Source: Candidatus Komeilibacteria bacterium (GTDB lineage: Bacteria > Patescibacteriota > Patescibacteriia > UBA1558). From it: a stretch of DNA of 64,000 bases. The translations under genes were made by a program, and so were the position numbers. The stretch spans positions 8,013 through 72,012 of the forward strand of contig JBLYPX010000001.1 in NCBI GenBank assembly GCA_048538235.1. Reading direction: 5' to 3'. Below the pieces are notes generated by a model. That model worked only from the letters and a program-made list of their open reading frames with translations, was not told where the DNA came from and made no database searches. Shown one piece after another: positions 2,089 through 25,463 of this stretch. The number at the start of each line of letters is the position of its first letter. Position 1 is the first letter of the stretch.

Positions 2089-2194
2089 TGTTGTTTTGTA
2101 ATGTTATTAATTATGTATATTATATCATTTTGGCATAATTCCTCATATATTTGTTTTTTGGTATAATAGTTATGTAATTATTTAGTTTAAAATT

Positions 2195-2368
2195 ATGTCA
2201 GATTCAAAAAAACAAAACGGATTAGCCGCTGGTGGCGGCGTTCTAGTAGGTTTGGGAGTTGGTTTCTTTTTACTTAATACCAGCCCTCTTTATTTCCTAG
2301 GCTCTATTTTAGTAGGACTTGGACTAGGACTCATGATAGAATCATTTATTGCAAAAATTGGAAAATAA
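2195..2368 (+). CDS. small glycine-zipper membrane protein (57 aa)
   Basis: MSDSKKQNGLAAGGGVLVGLGVGFF...; preceded by extended -10 promoter (tggTATAAT at 2160..2168). Below the ORF-track size cutoff. Confidence 0.35.
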   Translation: MSDSKKQNGLAAGGGVLVGLGVGFFLLNTSPLYFLGSILVGLGLGLMIESFIAKIGK

Positions 2369-2369
2369 T

Positions 2370-2579
2370 ATGAACAAAGTAGAAAAACTATTTAAACTAA
2401 GTTGGAAGAGGTTGGTTTTAATAATTATTGCCTGGATTGTAGCTGTTGTTCTACACAATCTATTAAGTGCAGCCATAGGAACAGAAGAAGCCTTTTTCTT
2501 CATAATAGCTATTTTTGTACTACCTATTTATTTAATAATAGCTGCTGTCTATTCTTTGGTTGCTTTTATTAAAAAATAG
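2370..2579 (+). CDS. small membrane protein, hypothetical
   Basis: Hydrophobic 69 aa from the ATG immediately after the upstream stop; the ORF-track start 2349 overlaps the previous ORF. Confidence 0.3.
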   Translation: MNKVEKLFKLSWKRLVLIIIAWIVAVVLHNLLSAAIGTEEAFFFIIAIFVLPIYLIIAAVYSLVAFIKK

Positions 2580-2612
2580 CTACTTATTTACAAAAGATTA
2601 GATATTAGTATA

Positions 2613-3002
2613 ATGTTTTTATCTATGGAAAATAGTAAACACAATATAATAGTATATTTATTACTAACAGGACTTATTGTCTCTTCTGTTTTAGGTTGTG
2701 TTTTCTTTGCGCAGAACATGATGATGACAGATCATCACGGGGATAGTATTGCTAAGTGTTGCGAGGGAGGTATTTTAGCAGATATAGCTAGTCATAGACC
2801 AGCCTCAATTTTAGTAAATATTAGTCTCAGTATATTTTTATTTGCTTTAGCTATTACTTCAATAATTAAACAGAATATATTCACTGATGAAGGTTTGTAT
2901 AAAACATATATAAGAGTGAAAGAAAGAAGTGGGGGTTTTAATTATTTTAATAATTACATTTTACTATTTAGTAAAGGTATTCTACATACAAAAGTTTATT
3001 AA
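2613..3002 (+). CDS. membrane protein with MMMTDHHGD / CCEGG motif (possible metal ligand residues)
   Basis: 129 aa, 2 TM segments, Met/His/Cys cluster; lies immediately upstream of the copper-handling cluster. Confidence 0.3.
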   Translation: MFLSMENSKHNIIVYLLLTGLIVSSVLGCVFFAQNMMMTDHHGDSIAKCCEGGILADIASHRPASILVNISLSIFLFALAITSIIKQNIFTDEGLYKTYIRVKERSGGFNYFNNYILLFSKGILHTKVY

Positions 3003-3077
3003 TTCCGTATAGATCCTACGTATAATATTTAATATTCAGTAGGATTTTTTAATTATTAAAAAATTAAAATTAACTAT

Positions 3078-3830
3078 ATGGAAGAAAAAAAGAAAAAAAT
3101 ACCTCGTTCTAAGATATCTTTTGGTTTAGGAATTCTTAGTGGTGTGGGTATTATGTTCATGATTGGATTTTTTGTCTTACTAGCTATGTTCCTTAGTGGG
3201 AATAATAGTCTGGGCACTGGTAATAAGGTTGCAGGAAATAATATACCGAGTGTTAATAGTGGTCAGGCGCCCACAAAAGACATTACAGTAAGTCCGGTCA
3301 GTAAAGAAGATTGGATGAGAGGAGATAAAAAGGCACCAATTAGTATTATTGAATTCTCAGACACTGAATGTCCTTTCTGTAAGAGATTTCATACAACTAT
3401 GCAACAAATAGTTGAAGAATATGACGGAGAGGTAAATTGGATTTATCGTCATTTTCCTTTGACGTCATTGCATTCAAAAGCAGCACGTGAGGCAGAAGCA
3501 ACAGAATGTGCTGGAGAATTAGCCGGTAATGATGGTTTTTGGAAATACATAGATAGATTATTTGCTGTAACACCGTCTAATAATGGGCTTAGTGATAGTG
3601 AGCTATACAATATTGCAGATTATGTTGGTTTAAACAGTTCTGACTTTAGAACTTGTTTAGAATCTGGCAAGTATGCAAGTAAAGTTAGAGATCATGCGAA
3701 TCAAGCGCAAGCAGCTGGTGGATCAGGTACGCCCTACAGCATAATAATAGCTGGAGATAAACAAGCGCCATTGTCTGGAGCCTTGCCAATAGAACAGCTC
3801 AGAACAATAATAGATTCTTTACTACAATAA
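3078..3830 (+). CDS. DsbA-family thiol:disulfide oxidoreductase (thioredoxin fold, CPFC active site), membrane anchored
   Basis: N-terminal TM segment, SDTECPFCKRFH active-site motif, DsbA-like length. Confidence 0.7.
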   Translation: MEEKKKKIPRSKISFGLGILSGVGIMFMIGFFVLLAMFLSGNNSLGTGNKVAGNNIPSVNSGQAPTKDITVSPVSKEDWMRGDKKAPISIIEFSDTECPFCKRFHTTMQQIVEEYDGEVNWIYRHFPLTSLHSKAAREAEATECAGELAGNDGFWKYIDRLFAVTPSNNGLSDSELYNIADYVGLNSSDFRTCLESGKYASKVRDHANQAQAAGGSGTPYSIIIAGDKQAPLSGALPIEQLRTIIDSLLQ

Positions 3831-3831
3831 T

Positions 3832-4290
3832 ATGGGAATAAATAAATATTATTGGCTAGCTTTAATACCTGTAGTTGCTTTTGTTATTGGTTTCACTATT
3901 TTGCCAGACGAAATTAGTACTAACGGTAAAAAGGTAACAGTGTATAAATCTCCTACATGCGGTTGTTGTGTTAACTACATTTCGATTCTTAAACAAGCTG
4001 GTTATGAGGTTGAGACAGTTAAGACAGAAAATATGGCAGCTATCAAAGATAAGTATGGAATTAGTGAAGATATGGAAAGTTGTCATACTTCTGTATTTGA
4101 AGATTATGTAGTAGAAGGACACGTGCCTTTGTCTGTAGTAGATAAATTACTAACAGAAAAACCAGATATTAGAGGTATAGCCTTGCCAGACATGCCAGCT
4201 GGATCTCCTGGTATGGCTGGATTTAAAAGAGAACCATTTAAAATATATGCTTTGTCAGATAATGACACTAGTATATACATTGAAGAATAA
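3832..4290 (+). CDS. DUF411 family periplasmic metal-binding protein (CopG-like in some nomenclatures)
   Basis: Signal/TM segment then TCGCC motif and conserved Met/His residues typical of DUF411 proteins found in copper-resistance loci. Confidence 0.55.
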   Translation: MGINKYYWLALIPVVAFVIGFTILPDEISTNGKKVTVYKSPTCGCCVNYISILKQAGYEVETVKTENMAAIKDKYGISEDMESCHTSVFEDYVVEGHVPLSVVDKLLTEKPDIRGIALPDMPAGSPGMAGFKREPFKIYALSDNDTSIYIEE

Positions 4291-22395: not shown

Positions 22396-22552
22396 AGATT
22401 ATTAATATAGTTCCTTGAAAGGCTATGAATTTAAGATATGAAGTGAGTATTGTGAGTATCTATTACTAGGTTCTTACTATACTCGCTTCATATGGTGTGA
22501 AGTAAGTCGTTATCCAAAGCGATTTTGGATGTTTAATTACAGGAGGTGTGCC

Positions 22553-23317
22553 ATGACTAAAGTGGTGAGCCGTACTTTATCAGTCCATAAGGAGCACGAA
22601 GTGCTTCTTAAACTAGAGACCGCTGGTCTCAACGATGAACTTGCTCAGGCAATCATTGATTCAAAGAGTAATCAACTTGCTACGAAAGTAGTTGAGCTGA
22701 TCAGTCGCAACGGCTACGAACCAAGTGTCATTGAAGAAAGAGCCCGTATGATCATGGGCAAGAACTTCTTTGGTGTTGCAGAAGCAATCAAGCATTTTAA
22801 AGTTAAACCCCTTAAAAAGCATACCAACGCTCTTGCCAAAGTACCTTTTACAGAAGAAATACTTGAAAAGTGTAAGGATACGCATATCCTTATCGCAGTA
22901 TTTCCTTTATCTCTTCTTGAGATAAGAAAGGCTGCTAAAGATCTTTTCTACTCCTCTGAAGGTGGCTGGTTTGAGAGCCAGGCTTTTGCTCAGGAAAGTT
23001 CAGAACCCCAATGGTGTCTCATTCAAAAAACTCCAGTTAAAGATTCAACATTCAAAAACTGGAAAGAACAACAGGCTCTTCTGCTAAAGAACGACGAAAC
23101 ACCCCCAGCCCATATAATGGTCTATACCATTATTGGACATTACCTGAATACAAAGGAACGAATCTTTGAAAACATCTGGGTTCGTACCTCATCCGTGGAT
23201 TCGGATGGCTACCGTGTGGTCGTCGGTGCTTTCGATTCGGGCGGTCTCAACGTCGACTACGACTGGGATGACAACCGTAATTCTTACCTCGGTGTCTCCT
23301 CCGCTCGGAAGTCCTGA
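22553..23317 (+). CDS. DGR target (variable) protein; C-terminal 40 aa encoded by the variable repeat, C-type-lectin-like NNNW...DDNRN motif
   Basis: AGGAGG RBS 7 nt before ATG 22553; higher GC than genome; C-terminal 120 bp is a mutated copy of the downstream TR. ORF-track start 22529 is upstream of the RBS. Confidence 0.8.
   Translation: MTKVVSRTLSVHKEHEVLLKLETAGLNDELAQAIIDSKSNQLATKVVELISRNGYEPSVIEERARMIMGKNFFGVAEAIKHFKVKPLKKHTNALAKVPFTEEILEKCKDTHILIAVFPLSLLEIRKAAKDLFYSSEGGWFESQAFAQESSEPQWCLIQKTPVKDSTFKNWKEQQALLLKNDETPPAHIMVYTIIGHYLNTKERIFENIWVRTSSVDSDGYRVVVGAFDSGGLNVDYDWDDNRNSYLGVSSARKS
23194..23313 (+). repeat. DGR variable repeat (VR)
   Basis: 120 bp, 110/120 identical to TR; all 10 mismatches are at TR adenines. 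Confidence 0.9.
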
Positions 23318-23336
23318 ATCTTGAGTTCTTGCTTAT

Positions 23337-23365
23337 CTATCCAATCCGCCTAGCGGATTGGATAG
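23337..23365. promoter_or_regulatory. hairpin immediately downstream of VR (12 bp perfect stem ctatccaatccg/cggattggatag, 5 nt loop)
   Basis: Seen directly in sequence, 24 nt after VR end; positionally analogous to the stem-loop/cruciform required for DGR homing in Bordetella phage BPP-1. Confidence 0.6.
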
Positions 23366-23757
23366 AATGACTTGTGCCTTTTGAATCCTTGAGTCCTCGT
23401 AAAAATTTTTGCGGGGACTCTTTTATTTTATATATACAGCTGTTATACTATTATTATCTTGCTAATGTAGATTCGGCTATTGCTTGATCTCGCGAGATGT
23501 CTCTTTTTACCCATATTGTATGGGGTTTGTTTACCAAAGTTTTAACTGCGGTAAGAGACTTTACCAGAATATCGTTGTTTAAGGATAACGATAGCGTGTG
23601 AATAAGAATAGAGATTAAACTTCTTATTTGTCTTTAGTGGAGATGTTCTATTATTAGGACTGCTCCCAAGTAAAATTCAGGAAGGAGAGAATATAGATCT
23701 GCATTGCAGGTGGTAAATCTCAACTTTTGGTGATGTGGATGAAGGCAAGTAATATTG

Positions 23758-23877
23758 CGTGGATTCGGATGACAACCGTGTGAACGTCGGTGATTTCGAT
23801 TCGGACGGTCTCAACGTCAACAACAACTGGGATGACAACCGTAATTCTAACCTCGGTGTCTCCTCCGCTCGGAAGTC
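23758..23877 (+). repeat. DGR template repeat (TR)
   Basis: Non-coding copy of VR, AAC-rich (encodes ...NVNNNWDDNRNSN... in VR frame); identical GC-rich 3' segment ggtgtctcctccgctcggaagtc (IMH-like) shared with VR. Confidence 0.9.
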
Positions 23878-23894
23878 TTTTCTCTATACTATTA

Positions 23895-23923
23895 AAAATA
23901 CTCTCCAATTAGGAGAGTATTTT
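23895..23923. terminator. hairpin between TR and avd 3' end (12 bp perfect stem aaaatactctcc/ggagagtatttt)
   Basis: Perfect stem with loop aatta; U-rich on both sides, so could terminate both the TR transcript (+) and avd (-). Confidence 0.5.
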
Positions 23924-23925
23924 AG

Positions 23926-24276
23926 TTAGTAGCTTTTGGTAGATTTTATCCATCCGCCAAGCATTCTACCTATTTCATCAACTAGCGTTTCAAGGGATAT
24001 GTATTTTTTAGAATCAATTGTTTTAGTATCTTTTAAAAGTCTTAAGAATATTCGTAAGAAGTTTAATTTAAGACTGGTTTTTTCTAGAATGGGAAGTTTC
24101 TCTGATTTTATTGCTTGGCTTGCCCACAGGATATTTTCAACAATATCTAGGATTATATTTTCACACCGTTGCCATGTGGTAAATCTATCTTGTTTAGGAA
24201 CACTGTTACGAAAACTGTGGAACAATTTGTATAGTTCATATGACTTTTTAAAAATAGGGATGTCAAAATCATTCAT
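23926..24276 (-). CDS. avd: DGR accessory variability determinant (Avd-like four-helix-bundle protein)
   Basis: 116 aa; C-terminal ETLVDEIGRMLGGWIKS matches Bordetella phage Avd LIAEVGRILGSWIAR; N-terminal YELYKLFHSF...PKQDRFTT typical of the S23-IVS/four-helix-bundle family. Opposite-strand ORF 23936..24283 is low complexity. Confidence 0.7.
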   Translation of the reverse strand: MNDFDIPIFKKSYELYKLFHSFRNSVPKQDRFTTWQRCENIILDIVENILWASQAIKSEKLPILEKTSLKLNFLRIFLRLLKDTKTIDSKKYISLETLVDEIGRMLGGWIKSTKSY

Positions 24277-24279
24277 GTT

Positions 24280-25329
24280 ATGAAAATTTATACTAATCTT
24301 TTTAAAAGAATAATATCCCTGGAAAATCTTTTTTTAGCGTGGGATAAATTTAAAGCCGATAAACAAACTAAGTCAGATGTACAAGAGTTTGCATTCTGTT
24401 TGGAAAAGAATATTTTTCAATTGCATAAAGATTTGAAGAGTGGGAATTATACACATGGCTCTTATACTTCTTTTTATATTCATGATCCAAAGTTACGTCA
24501 TATTCATAAGGCTGAAGTTAGGGATAGGGTTTTTCATCATGCTGTTTTTCAAATACTTAACCCTCTTTTTGAACCTACTTTTATTGCCACTTCTTTTTCG
24601 TGCCGAGTAAATAAAGGTACACATAAGGGAGTAGAGTGCGTGGAGAAGATGCTTAGAGTAGTAAGTAAGAATTATACTAAACCGTGTTTTGTCTTGAAAT
24701 GTGATGTTAAAAAGTTTTTTGACTCGGTTGATCATGATATTTTATTAAATATTTTAGGTAGAACAGTGAAAGATGATGTTGTTATGCGTCTTATGAAAGA
24801 AATTGTTGAAAGTTTTTCTAGTGGACGATCTACATTGTTTAGGTGGTGTGGAATTCCAATTGGTAATTTAACTTCGCAGTTGTTTGCTAATGTTTATATG
24901 AATGAATTTGATCATTTTGTGAAACATGAGCTAAAGGTTAAGTATTATGCTCGCTATACTGATGATTTTGTCATCATTCATAATGACATTAAGTATTTAA
25001 AAGGGTTAATTAGTAAGATAAATATTTTTTTACATGATAATTTAAGACTTGCCTTGCATCCGGGTAAGGTTTCCATAAATAAAGCTAGTCGTGGGGTAGA
25101 TTTTTTGGGATATATAATATTTCCTTATCATAAAATGGTACGCACCAAGACTAAAAATAGAGTTTTTAGAAAGTTAAGGCAAAAAATTAGAGTGTATAAA
25201 GTGGGAGAGTTACCCGAAGAGTCTCTTGAGCAAACACTTAATTCTTATTTGGGAGTTTTTTCTCACGCCAATGCTTTCGGGCTGGGTGAAAAATTGAAAA
25301 ACCAGTATTGGTTTTGGATAAATGAATAA
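24280..25329 (+). CDS. DGR reverse transcriptase
   Basis: RT motifs: FDSVDHDILL, GIPIGNLTSQLFANVYMNEFD (DGR-specific SQ in motif 4), YARYTDDFVI (YxDD), LGYIIFP; 349 aa typical size. Confidence 0.9.
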   Translation: MKIYTNLFKRIISLENLFLAWDKFKADKQTKSDVQEFAFCLEKNIFQLHKDLKSGNYTHGSYTSFYIHDPKLRHIHKAEVRDRVFHHAVFQILNPLFEPTFIATSFSCRVNKGTHKGVECVEKMLRVVSKNYTKPCFVLKCDVKKFFDSVDHDILLNILGRTVKDDVVMRLMKEIVESFSSGRSTLFRWCGIPIGNLTSQLFANVYMNEFDHFVKHELKVKYYARYTDDFVIIHNDIKYLKGLISKINIFLHDNLRLALHPGKVSINKASRGVDFLGYIIFPYHKMVRTKTKNRVFRKLRQKIRVYKVGELPEESLEQTLNSYLGVFSHANAFGLGEKLKNQYWFWINE

Positions 25330-25463
25330 TTTTTTTAAAAAACATTTTTATATTCAATGTTATACATAAATAATTAAAATGTCAATCCCTTTTTGATTTT
25401 ATACAGTCTAAAATTAATTATTTTAATAAAAACCCCTCTACCATGAAGAGGGGTTTTGTTGTT

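What the first reader, a model, noticed from the sequence alone, without database searches (positions are those of the whole stretch)
23337..23365. Perfect 12 bp hairpin 24 nt downstream of the VR
ctatccaatccg-cctag-cggattggatag forms a perfect 12 bp stem with a 5 nt loop, placed just after the IMH-like VR end. In the BPP-1 DGR a stem-loop/cruciform downstream of the VR is needed for efficient target-primed homing. The position and quality here suggest the same function. A second, imperfect hairpin (gagtcctcg...cggggactc + T-run, ~23385..23425) follows and is probably the gene terminator.
Basis: partly seen in the sequence, partly recalled or inferred. Interest (0 to 1): 0.6.

Follow-up and report, generated by a model that had tools for sequence, protein, structure and literature searches.

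The report
Long hairpin after a DGR variable repeat
A perfect 14-base-pair hairpin lies just after the hypervariable end of a gene that a diversity-generating retroelement rewrites in a Patescibacteria genome; it is most likely an unusually long version of the known target-site stem-loop that helps mutated DNA copies enter the gene.

Summary
The hairpin is real and better than reported: a perfect 14-bp stem with a 3-nt loop at 23336-23366 (DNA dG -14.7 kcal/mol). About 0.006 such hairpins are expected by chance in 64 kb.

It lies 22 nt after the VR of an intact DGR. VR and TR differ at 10 positions, all TR adenines. The cassette has an inverted avd and a 349-aa RT, in a Candidatus Komeilibacteria MAG. 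The hairpin has no T-tract, so it is not the terminator. The next hairpin (23391-23420 plus T-run) is the terminator and is conserved across the family.

About 100 homologous loci share a post-stop module: five CTTGA repeats framing a covarying 5-6 bp stem-loop. The same module follows an unrelated target gene served by the same RT clade. In the window, the 14-bp hairpin replaces the left arm of that small stem-loop. Its core, TCCGC-CTA-GCGGA, matches a recurrent GC-rich hairpin class found in 10 of 104 loci.

The closest syntenic relative lacks both the DGR cassette and the right arm.

Verdict: a DGR target-site stem-loop, a new variant of a known kind. It fails the BPP-1 consensus (7-10 bp stem, GRNA loop). 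Function is inferred, not shown, and "target-primed" is outdated. Interest is moderate.

The parts
22529..23317 (+). DGR target gene (262 aa; family A, about 255 aa, no Pfam hit), with the VR at its 3' end
   Evidence: ORF list. No Pfam family. More than 750 Patescibacteria homologs whose variable positions lie at the C-terminus.
23194..23313 (+). Variable repeat (VR), 120 nt
   Evidence: Direct repeat of the TR. There are 10 mismatches, all at TR adenines, and 92 of 92 non-A positions are identical.
23286..23313 (+). IMH-like GC-rich 3' end of the VR, identical to the TR 3' end (IMH = IMH*)
   Evidence: No mismatch after VR position 92. The 23-mer GGTGTCTCCTCCGCTCGGAAGTC occurs only at 23291-23313 and 23855-23877.
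23320..23331 (+). CTTGA repeats 1 and 2 of the family-wide post-stop module (CTTGA 23320-23324; CTTG 23328-23331)
   Evidence: Same offsets (+2, +10 after the stop) as in about 50 unique homologous loci.
23336..23366 (.). THE FINDING: a perfect 14-bp inverted repeat with a 3-nt spacer. Arms are 23336-23349 and 23353-23366; the loop CTA is 23350-23352; the core is TCCGC-CTA-GCGGA.
   Evidence: It sits where the left arm of the family's small covarying hairpin normally lies. Its core matches the recurrent YCCGC(C)-N3-4-(G)GCGGR post-VR hairpins.
23371..23392 (+). Remnant of the canonical module: loop CTTGT (23371-23375), orphaned right arm GCCT (23376-23379), repeat 4 TTTGA (23380-23384), repeat 5 CTTGA (23388-23392)
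   Evidence: Reading the window against the canonical layout TGA-ac-CTTGA-att-CTTGA-GGG-CTTGT-CCCT-CTTGA-ttc-CTTGAGCC. L005 has the same CTTGT-GCCT-TTTGA string.
23391..23430 (+). Intrinsic terminator of the target gene (13-pair stem 23391-23420 plus T-run)
   Evidence: Terminator scan. Folds. A hairpin starting CTTGAGCC with a T-run is conserved at this place in the family.
23758..23877 (+). Template repeat (TR)
23895..23923 (.). 12-bp perfect hairpin 17 nt after the TR (AAAATACTCTCC-AATTA-GGAGAGTATTTT), lying between the TR and the 3' end of avd
   Evidence: (I16). An 11-17 bp hairpin occupies this place in every family DGR examined.
23926..24276 (-). avd (accessory variability determinant), on the opposite strand
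   Evidence: PF22296 bAvd, E = 6.6e-17. The same inverted orientation occurs across the clade.
24280..25329 (+). DGR reverse transcriptase (349 aa)
   Evidence: PF00078, E = 2.6e-23. More than 7600 homologs, nearly all 349 aa.

Best explanation
The inverted repeat at 23336-23366 is the cis-acting target-site stem-loop of a chromosomal Patescibacteria DGR.

Proposed mechanism:
1. The RT-Avd complex copies the TR RNA into adenine-mutagenised cDNA. This step is shown for BPP-1 and inferred here.
2. The cDNA must then pair with the sense strand of the VR.
3. In this clade the 3' ends of VR and TR are identical. The only features that mark the VR as recipient therefore lie downstream: the CTTGA repeats and a stem-loop.
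4. When the DNA is transiently single-stranded or negatively supercoiled, the repeat folds as a hairpin or cruciform. This holds the adjacent VR end open and raises the efficiency of cDNA integration (the model of PMC3240598 and PMC12875486).

The window carries a lineage-specific version. A GC-cored TCCGC-CTA-GCGGA hairpin extended to 14 bp has replaced the left arm of the family's usual 5-6 bp stem-loop. It is about 2-3 times more stable as DNA.

Shown: the anatomy, the position, that it is not a terminator, family-wide structural conservation, and linkage of the module to the DGR clade. Inferred: that this copy acts in homing, and whether it acts as DNA or RNA.
For: (1) The DGR is intact and was recently active. 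There are 10 of 10 mismatches at TR adenines and 92 of 92 non-A positions identical. avd and the RT are intact.

(2) The hairpin starts 22-23 nt after the VR end, inside the 4-34 bp range of PMC3240598.

(3) It has no T-tract. A separate canonical terminator follows.

(4) Among 94 unique homologous loci, 68% have a perfect >=5-bp non-terminator hairpin within 50 nt of the stop. Shuffled controls give about 16%.

(5) The canonical hairpin covaries. Pair 20-28 is GC 22 / AU 18 / GU 5 and pair 21-27 is GC 19 / AU 15 / GU 7. No shuffle of 500 reaches the observed value, slid controls are lower, and an alternative register is unsupported.

(6) The window's hairpin occupies exactly that slot within the conserved CTTGA frame.

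(7) The CTTGA module also follows an unrelated target family (BLASTP E = 4.4) served by the same RT clade. Hairpins there show a compensatory change: TTCGC-GTA-GCGAA against TCCGC-GAA-GCGGA.

(8) A GC-rich class YCCGC(C)-N3-4-(G)GCGGR recurs in 10 of 104 unique loci, always with the C-rich arm first. The window's core fits it.

(9) The module co-occurs with a cassette in the same locus: OR 6.1, Fisher p = 0.006.

(10) The syntenic relatives L051/L052 lack TR-avd-RT, and they also lack the right arm and repeats 3-5.

(11) IMH = IMH* here, so discrimination must lie downstream (the same point is made in general in PMC5758913).

(12) The + strand has positive GC skew and carries most genes. The target is therefore probably co-directional with replication, the orientation favoured for DGR editing in PMC12875486.
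Against: - No functional test was possible.
- This exact hairpin is known from one genome only. Its perfection is equally explained by a recent inverted duplication, so there is no compensatory evidence for this copy.
- It departs from the experimentally defined BPP-1 optimum. The stem is 14 bp rather than 8-10; in BPP-1, longer insertions gradually reduced activity. The loop is CTA rather than the size- and sequence-critical GRNA.
- It destroys the family's canonical small hairpin rather than adding to it.
- Nine loci keep the module with no cassette within 4 kb. The module could therefore serve the gene or mRNA rather than the DGR.
- The association tests are not phylogeny-corrected.
- The TR is also followed by a strong hairpin in this clade. 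A hairpin as such cannot be the mark that separates recipient from donor.
- The G.T against A.C bias (18 vs 9) is too weak to decide between a DNA cruciform and a sense-strand or RNA fold.
Confidence: 0.6

Rival explanations
1. Neutral, recent mutational palindrome. An inverted duplication (template switch) or a small palindromic insertion landed in the 3' UTR. It disrupted the canonical small hairpin and has no role, or a mildly harmful one, in homing.
For: - The left arm is ancestral: L051/L052 carry TTATTACCCAAATCCACCTA against TTATCTATCCAATCCGCCTA. The right arm exists only in the window lineage.
- A 14/14 perfect match is what a recent duplication gives by construction.
- It is the extreme outlier of the family: 14 bp against at most 7 bp in canonical-context loci.
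- It removes the left arm of the conserved stem-loop.
Against: - It lands precisely in the slot where the family keeps a stem-loop.
- Its core matches a hairpin class that recurs after VRs in two unrelated target families.
- VR and TR are still perfectly matched at all non-A sites. Homing has therefore operated recently on a target of this lineage.
- The palindrome is single-copy in the window, so there is no sign of a mobile repeat.
- Independent expansions occur at the same site in other loci: L014, L064, L108.
Confidence: 0.2
2. An RNA-level 3'-UTR element of the target mRNA. This could be a stabilising stem-loop, a processing or protein-binding site, or a helper of the downstream terminator that keeps target transcription from reading into the TR. 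It would act independently of cDNA integration.
For: - It lies between the stop codon and the terminator and is transcribed with the gene.
- The RNA fold is very stable.
- In the family, G.U-type pairs on the sense strand outnumber A.C by 18 to 9.
- CUUGAG is self-complementary only with G.U pairs, which hints at a sense-strand or RNA fold (reading).
- Nine loci keep the module without a cassette within 4 kb.
Against: - The same module follows an unrelated gene only in the context of the same DGR clade.
- The module co-occurs with cassettes and is decayed in the cassette-less syntenic relative.
- There is no Rfam family match.
- A canonical terminator already provides a 3' protective stem.
- Sense-strand wobble tolerance fits single-stranded sense DNA on the lagging-strand template equally well (PMC12875486).
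Confidence: 0.15
3. It is the transcription terminator of the target gene, or a palindromic operator for a dimeric DNA-binding protein.
For: It is a strong stem-loop directly after a stop codon. A perfect dyad symmetry could bind a dimer.
Against: - No T-tract follows; the tail is ATGACTTGTG.
- The terminator scan does not call it, but it does call the next hairpin, which has TTTTATTTTA.
- All 11 other long hairpins in the window have A/T-run flanks, and this one does not.
- It lies at a gene's 3' end, 390 nt from the next feature. That is not an operator position.
Confidence: 0.05

Closest known systems
BPP-1-type DGR target hairpin/cruciform (Guo et al. 2011, PMC3240598; re-tested in E. coli in PMC12875486)
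   Same: - An inverted repeat a few to a few tens of nt after the 3' end (IMH) of a DGR VR.
- Upstream of, and distinct from, any terminator.
- In related elements the stem sequence varies while pairing is kept.
- Its expected role is to raise the efficiency of retrohoming, not to set the site.
   Different: - The stem is 14 bp and 50% GC, against 7-10 bp and GC-rich.
- The loop is the 3-nt CTA, against the 4-nt GRNA that is critical in size and sequence.
- It is embedded in a CTTGA-repeat module not described for BPP-1.
- The TR in this clade also has a downstream hairpin.
- IMH and IMH* are identical.
- MyDGR's hairpin rule (PMC6602519) would not call it.
Nanoarchaeota (DUSEL4) DGR hairpins with trinucleotide loops (Paul et al. 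2015, PMC4372165)
   Same: These are DGRs of ultrasmall, uncultivated lineages whose post-VR hairpins have 3-nt loops. Family-B relatives here have GAA or GTA triloops, which fits the GRA-like pattern.
   Different: The window's loop is CTA, not GRA. The archaeal hairpins lie inside the target ORF, whereas this one is in the 3' UTR. The stem here is much longer.
Intrinsic terminators, the targets recognised by group IIC introns (discussed in PMC3240598)
   Same: A stem-loop at a gene's 3' end, used as a landmark by a retroelement.
   Different: The hairpin has no U-tract. A separate true terminator follows 25 nt later.

Membership tests
DGR target-site hairpin/cruciform (BPP-1 type, Guo 2011) | Lies downstream of a bona fide VR: a TR/VR pair with adenine-specific mismatches, with an RT and accessory gene nearby | tested here: met
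   10 of 10 mismatches at TR adenines and 92 of 92 non-A sites identical. bAvd and RVT_1 lie adjacent.
DGR target-site hairpin/cruciform (BPP-1 type, Guo 2011) | Starts 4-34 bp after the 3' end of the VR | tested here: met
   The VR ends at 23313 and the stem starts at 23336, a 22-nt gap. The range is from PMC3240598.
DGR target-site hairpin/cruciform (BPP-1 type, Guo 2011) | GC-rich stem of 7-10 bp | tested here: not met
   The stem is 14 bp with 7 of 14 G:C pairs. Only the loop-proximal core CCGC/GCGG is GC-rich.
DGR target-site hairpin/cruciform (BPP-1 type, Guo 2011) | 4-nt loop of consensus GRNA on the sense strand | tested here: not met
   The loop is CTA (3 nt), or CCTAG if the closing C:G pair is opened.
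DGR target-site hairpin/cruciform (BPP-1 type, Guo 2011) | Pairing conserved while stem sequence varies among related DGRs | tested here: met
   This holds for the family element at the same slot: covariation in 49 sequences, with 0 of 500 shuffles reaching the observed value. There is also a compensatory T:A to C:G change between L133 and L137. It does not hold for this exact 14-bp copy, which is unique.
DGR target-site hairpin/cruciform (BPP-1 type, Guo 2011) | Inverted repeat present after the VR but not after the TR, so that it marks the recipient | tested here: not met
   The TR is followed 17 nt later by its own 12-bp hairpin. The same is true in all 15 family DGRs examined.
DGR target-site hairpin/cruciform (BPP-1 type, Guo 2011) | Needed for efficient retrohoming; forms a hairpin or cruciform in supercoiled DNA | not testable with these tools
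   Only the predicted stability is available: -14.7 kcal/mol on either strand.
Patescibacteria post-VR GC-cored hairpin class YCCGC(C)-N3-4-(G)GCGGR (defined here) | Non-terminator hairpin within about 65 nt of the stop of a target of the 349-aa RT clade; C-rich arm first on the sense strand; CCGC/GCGG core; 3-4 nt loop | tested here: met
   The window core is TCCGC-CTA-GCGGA. Nine other unique loci from two unrelated target families carry this class.
Rho-independent terminator | GC-rich stem immediately followed by a T/U tract | tested here: not met
   The tail is ATGACTTGTG and the scan does not call it. The neighbouring hairpin at 23391-23420 does meet this feature.
Dispersed palindromic repeat (REP/MITE-like) | Multiple copies in the genome | tested here: inconclusive
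   There is no other copy within 2 mismatches in the 64-kb window beyond chance. The rest of the 860-kb contig was not available.
Known RNA families (Rfam 15) | Covariance-model match | tested here: not met
   Only sub-threshold chance hits to a miRNA model (18-19 bits against a gathering score of 90).

The most novel reading that the evidence does not exclude
The large Patescibacteria DGR clade has a 349-aa RT, an inverted avd, and IMH identical to IMH*. In this reading it marks its recipients with a composite 3' signal not described for BPP-1-type elements. The signal is five CTTGA repeats at 8-9 nt spacing, framing or preceding a stem-loop whose stem can range from 5 to 14 bp. The window's copy would be a natural 'stem-swap' experiment: a TCCGC-cored 14-bp hairpin substituting for the canonical GAGGG-CTTGT-CCCTC hairpin. 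If so, the CTTGA array, not the hairpin alone, is the clade's donor/recipient discriminator. It could then be transplanted to retarget these compact DGRs.
Probability: 0.3. Interest if true: 0.6.

Novelty: new variant of a known kind. Interest (0 to 1): 0.38.

Why it matters
How DGR cDNA finds and enters its target is still the least understood step of mutagenic retrohoming. Essentially all experiments come from one phage element, BPP-1.

Only about a third of surveyed DGRs show a BPP-1-like GC-rich inverted repeat (PMC5758913). Rule-based tools look only for 7-10 bp stems with GRNA loops.

This locus and its roughly 100 relatives show something different in a very abundant CPR DGR clade. VR and TR ends are identical. 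A conserved downstream module (CTTGA repeats plus a covarying stem-loop) goes with the DGR across unrelated target genes. Stem length is naturally plastic, from 5 to 14 bp.

This gives concrete, testable cis-elements for reconstituting or retargeting CPR DGRs. It also suggests that hairpin annotation rules are too narrow. By itself, though, a hairpin after a VR is an expected feature, not a surprise.

Tried and rejected
- Terminator reading of the hairpin: rejected, because there is no T-tract and a separate terminator follows.
- Dispersed repeat: there are no extra copies in the window.
- Known RNA family: nothing in Rfam at gathering or permissive thresholds.
- Alternative longer register for the family hairpin, pairing the flanking CTTGAG repeats through G.T wobbles: 73% of cells are paired, but there is no covariation and it is no better than shuffles. 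Rejected in favour of the 5-bp inner helix.
- Strand bias of wobble pairs as a DNA-versus-RNA discriminator: 18 G.T against 9 A.C, which is too weak.
- Derivation of the VR hairpin from the TR-downstream hairpin by an over-long cDNA. CTATCCAAT against CTCTCCAAT do resemble each other in the MAFFT alignment. However, the intervening 20 nt are unrelated, so I dropped this as unsupported.
- Covariation between VR-hairpin and TR-hairpin stems within loci: inspection shows a shared GAGRG/CYCTC flavour but no locus-by-locus matching. Not pursued.
- Search for closer relatives that carry the same hairpin. Only L051/L052 (74% aa) exist in the genome and metagenome collections scanned. The closest RT relatives (L132, L133) have other targets. 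No compensatory test of the 14-bp stem itself was therefore possible.
- One look-up (P0330) returned no DNA.

Full report
**1. Observation**

The reported sequence is at 23337-23365 exactly as written. Two further pairs form: the loop-closing C:G, and T23336:A23366. The element is therefore a perfect 14-bp stem with a 3-nt loop (CTA) spanning 23336-23366.

- Folded alone as DNA it gives -14.7 kcal/mol on either strand. Shuffles give -2.3 +/- 1.5, so z is about -8.
- With the window's composition (33.6% GC), about 0.006 perfect >=14-bp hairpins are expected in 64 kb, and about 5e-6 in a given 60-nt stretch.
- It is the longest of the 12 perfect >=10-bp hairpins in the window. The other 11 all have the AAAA...TTTT flanks of bidirectional terminators, and this one does not.
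- The arm sequence occurs nowhere else in the window beyond chance.
- Rfam has no match.

**2. Context**

The hairpin sits in a complete diversity-generating retroelement.

- The 262-aa ORF 22529-23317 ends in a 120-nt VR (23194-23313). The VR is repeated as a TR at 23758-23877.
- The two differ at 10 positions, all adenines in the TR (10 of 28 TR adenines). All 92 non-adenine positions are identical.
- After the TR come a 12-bp hairpin (23895-23923), an Avd gene on the opposite strand (23926-24276, PF22296), and a 349-aa RT (24280-25329, PF00078).
- The neighbours are housekeeping genes: NifS, NifU, PepA, HPRT and an MBL-fold protein.
- The target protein is 100% identical to a Candidatus Komeilibacteria MAG protein on an 860-kb contig. 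This is therefore a chromosomal DGR of a Patescibacteria (CPR) bacterium.
- The last 28 nt of VR and TR are identical. IMH equals IMH*, so anything that distinguishes recipient from donor must lie downstream of 23313.
- The stop codon is at 23315-23317 and the hairpin stem begins 22 nt after the VR.
- No T-tract follows the hairpin. A second hairpin (23391-23420, 13 pairs) followed by TTTTATTTTA is called as a terminator.

**3. Related loci**

The target belongs to a family of about 255-aa proteins with more than 750 homologs at about 60% identity, all from Patescibacteria. I fetched 50 loci from species-representative genomes and 80 from metagenomes.

In those with enough flank, the usual layout matches the window. 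The order is target(+), terminator, TR(+) about 360-560 nt downstream, a strong 11-17 bp hairpin, avd(-), RT(+). TR-to-VR changes are adenine-only.

The DNA after the stop codon is strikingly conserved for non-coding sequence between proteins only about 60% identical:

TGA-ac-CTTGA-att-CTTGA-GGG-CTTGT-CCCT-CTTGA-ttc-CTTGAGCC...

This is five CTTGA repeats at 8-9 nt spacing. The last repeat opens the terminator stem. Repeats 2-4 frame a small stem-loop, GAGGG-CTTGT-CCCTC.

That stem-loop covaries:
- In 49 distinct sequences aligned without gaps, the two loop-proximal pairs are GC 22 / AU 18 / GU 5 and GC 19 / AU 15 / GU 7.
- No shuffle of 500 reaches the observed covariation.
- All slid-partner controls are lower (the smaller set is).
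- A competing longer register is not supported.

Across 94 unique loci, 68% have a perfect >=5-bp non-terminator hairpin starting within 50 nt of the stop. Shuffles give about 16%.

**4. Where the window's hairpin fits**

Read against the canonical frame, the window is:

TGA-at-CTTGA-gtt-CTTG-[c-tta-TCTATCCAATCCGC-CTA-GCGGATTGGATAGA-atga]-CTTGT-GCCT-TTTGA-atc-CTTGAGTCC

Repeats 1, 2, 4 and 5 are kept, along with the canonical loop and the right arm. The 4-nt left arm is replaced by 39 nt that contain the 14-bp hairpin. The long hairpin thus takes the place of the small one.

It is the family's extreme. The next longest perfect stems in canonical-context loci are 7 bp. Family hairpins are worth only -4 to -7 kcal/mol as DNA.

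Its core is not idiosyncratic:
- Ten of 104 unique loci carry non-terminator GC-cored hairpins of the form YCCGC(C)-N3-4-(G)GCGGR. The C-rich arm always comes first on the sense strand.
- Examples are ATCCGCC-GCA-GGCGGAT, TCCGCC-AACT-GGCGGA, TCCCGC-CTTG-GCGGGA and CCGCC-GAA-GGCGG.
- The window's TCCGC-CTA-GCGGA fits this class.
- Other loci show independent expansions at the same slot: L014, L064 and L108.

**5. Does the module belong to the gene or to the DGR?**

Anchoring on the RT (more than 7600 homologs) gave L133. Its target has no detectable similarity to the window's target (BLASTP E = 4.4). It is nevertheless followed by CTTGA repeats at the same offsets and then by a GC hairpin with a triloop.

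That second target family has about 1500 homologs. Its members show TTCGC-GTA-GCGAA (L133), TCCGC-GAA-GCGGA (L137) and CCGCC-GAA-GGCGG (L139, L140). L133 and L137 differ by a compensatory T:A to C:G change within otherwise identical flanks.

Within family A:
- Second, tandem targets of the same TR also carry the module.
- Among loci with at least 3 kb of flank, module and cassette co-occur: counts 25 / 9 / 5 / 11, odds ratio 6.1, Fisher p = 0.006. This is not phylogeny-corrected.

The only close relatives of the window's gene are L051 and L052 (74% aa, the same sequence). They are fully syntenic (Fur, NifS, NifU, PepA, target, HPRT, MBL, RNR), but the TR-avd-RT cassette is missing between the target and HPRT. 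The 29 nt spanning the stop codon (the last 12 nt of the VR through repeat 2, GCTCGGAAGTCCTGAATCTTGAGTTCTTG) are identical to the window. The left arm is present but diverged (5 of 14 positions). The right arm and repeats 3-5 are absent.

This fits decay after loss of the DGR. It fits equally well a right arm newly created in the window's lineage.

**6. Mechanism**

Experiments on BPP-1 show the following:
- A stem-loop just after IMH is needed for efficient, but not for all, retrohoming.
- Stem structure matters more than stem sequence.
- The loop's size and GRNA sequence matter.
- The element forms a cruciform in supercoiled DNA (PMC3240598).

Later work showed that cDNA synthesis is primed by the template RNA rather than by the target (PMC5703328, PMC6182149). 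In E. coli, deletion of the stem-loop strongly reduces editing but does not abolish it. Targets co-directional with replication are favoured. The authors propose that the stem-loop prolongs the open state of the sense strand, so that cDNA can anneal on the lagging-strand template (PMC12875486).

In the window, the + strand has positive GC skew and carries most genes. The target is therefore probably co-directional with replication. This is an inference, and skew is confounded by coding-strand composition.

My best explanation (confidence 0.6) is that 23336-23366 is this clade's target-site stem-loop in an unusually long form. It would act together with the CTTGA repeats to mark the VR end as recipient and to favour cDNA pairing.

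What is shown: the anatomy, the position, that it is not a terminator, family-level structural conservation, and linkage of the module to the DGR clade. What is inferred: that this copy is functional, and whether the active form is a cruciform, a sense-strand DNA hairpin or RNA. The wobble-pair bias (18 G.T against 9 A.C) is too weak to decide.

**7. Rivals**

(a) A neutral, recent inverted duplication (0.2). Perfection is uninformative for a unique copy, the right arm is lineage-specific, and it destroys the canonical hairpin. Against this, it occupies the conserved slot, carries the clade's recurrent core, and lies next to a VR that is perfectly matched to its TR at non-A sites.

(b) An RNA-level 3'-UTR element (0.15). 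It is transcribed, there is some sense-strand wobble bias, and some module-bearing loci have no nearby cassette. Against this, the module tracks the DGR across unrelated genes.

(c) A terminator or operator (0.05). It has no T-tract and is in the wrong position.

**8. Comparison with the known**

The element works like the BPP-1 hairpin/cruciform in position and probable role. It fails two defining sequence features, the 7-10 bp GC-rich stem and the GRNA tetraloop. It also fails the 'not after TR' criterion, because this clade's TR has its own strong downstream hairpin.

Trinucleotide loops have precedent in Nanoarchaeota DGRs (GRA; PMC4372165). The family-B relatives here have GAA or GTA loops. 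A survey found high-confidence GC-rich inverted repeats after only 34% of DGRs (PMC5758913). MyDGR searches only for the BPP-1 pattern (PMC6602519), so it would miss this element.

I found no description of the CTTGA-repeat module in the papers I could search. That is absence in a limited library, not proof of novelty.

**9. Verdict**

The right kind of element was identified and the terminator was assigned correctly. The mechanism wording is outdated, this exact hairpin is not conserved, and it departs from the consensus. It is a new variant of a known kind. Interest is 0.38: a specialist would expect a stem-loop here. The added value is the clade-wide CTTGA module and the natural 5-to-14-bp stem plasticity, both of which are directly testable.

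Noticed in passing
window 23318-23392; loci L001-L131 (first ~45 nt after the target stop); L133:3072-3130; L137:1193-1250: Five CTTGA repeats at 8-9 nt spacing follow the stop codon of DGR targets. They are conserved across about 50 unique loci whose proteins are only about 60% identical. They also follow an unrelated target family served by the same RT clade. CUUGAG is self-complementary only through G.U pairs. This may be the clade's donor/recipient discriminator.
   Followed up: partly
window 23895-23923 (and 15-25 nt after the TR in L001, L003, L004, L008, L015, L016, L017, L021, L022, L029, L033, L036, L037, L038, L039): Every TR in this clade is followed by a strong 11-17 bp hairpin whose stem sequence varies between loci. 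It lies between the TR and the 3' end of the inverted avd. It may be a bidirectional terminator, part of the DGR RNA that recruits RT-Avd, or both. In BPP-1 the TR is said not to be followed by an inverted repeat.
   Followed up: partly
window 23926-24276 (-) and 24280-25329 (+): avd is on the opposite strand to the TR and RT. Its start codon is only 3 nt from the RT start codon, so the two are divergent with overlapping promoter space. The arrangement is conserved across the clade. It implies either that the RT mRNA and TR RNA are separate transcripts, or that a TR-RT transcript is antisense to avd.
   Followed up: no
window 23286-23313 vs 23850-23877: The GC-rich 3' ends of VR and TR are identical (IMH = IMH*), and the same holds in the family DGRs examined. 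The BPP-1 logic of IMH/IMH* mismatches setting directionality cannot apply here.
   Followed up: partly
L051:4874-5016 and L052 (syntenic with window 23318-25460): The closest relative has the same gene order (Fur, NifS, NifU, PepA, target, HPRT, MBL, RNR) but no TR-avd-RT between the target terminator and the HPRT terminator. The ~2-kb cassette was therefore either lost there or inserted in the window's lineage. Its target keeps a VR-like 3' end.
   Followed up: partly
window 22529-23317; L133:2280-3071: Two abundant Patescibacteria DGR target families have no Pfam match at all: family A (~255 aa, >750 homologs) and family B (~300 aa, ~1500 homologs). Their folds and functions were not examined. 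Their variable C-termini (...LGVSSARKF and ...GSVSAFVPQS) may be CLec-like.
   Followed up: no
L005 (472-2147 vs 2164-3839): A 1676-bp perfect direct duplication includes the target gene. It is probably an assembly artefact or a very recent tandem duplication.
   Followed up: no
L008, L009/L091, L056/L072/L074, L096, L108, L121 (around the target stop codon): In several family members a GC-rich hairpin spans or immediately abuts the stop codon. Examples are CCCGCA-TAA-...-TGCGGG and TCCCGC-GTA-GCGGGA, the latter overlapping the TAG stop. Stem-loops in this clade can therefore overlap the end of the coding sequence, as reported for Nanoarchaeota DGRs.
   Followed up: no
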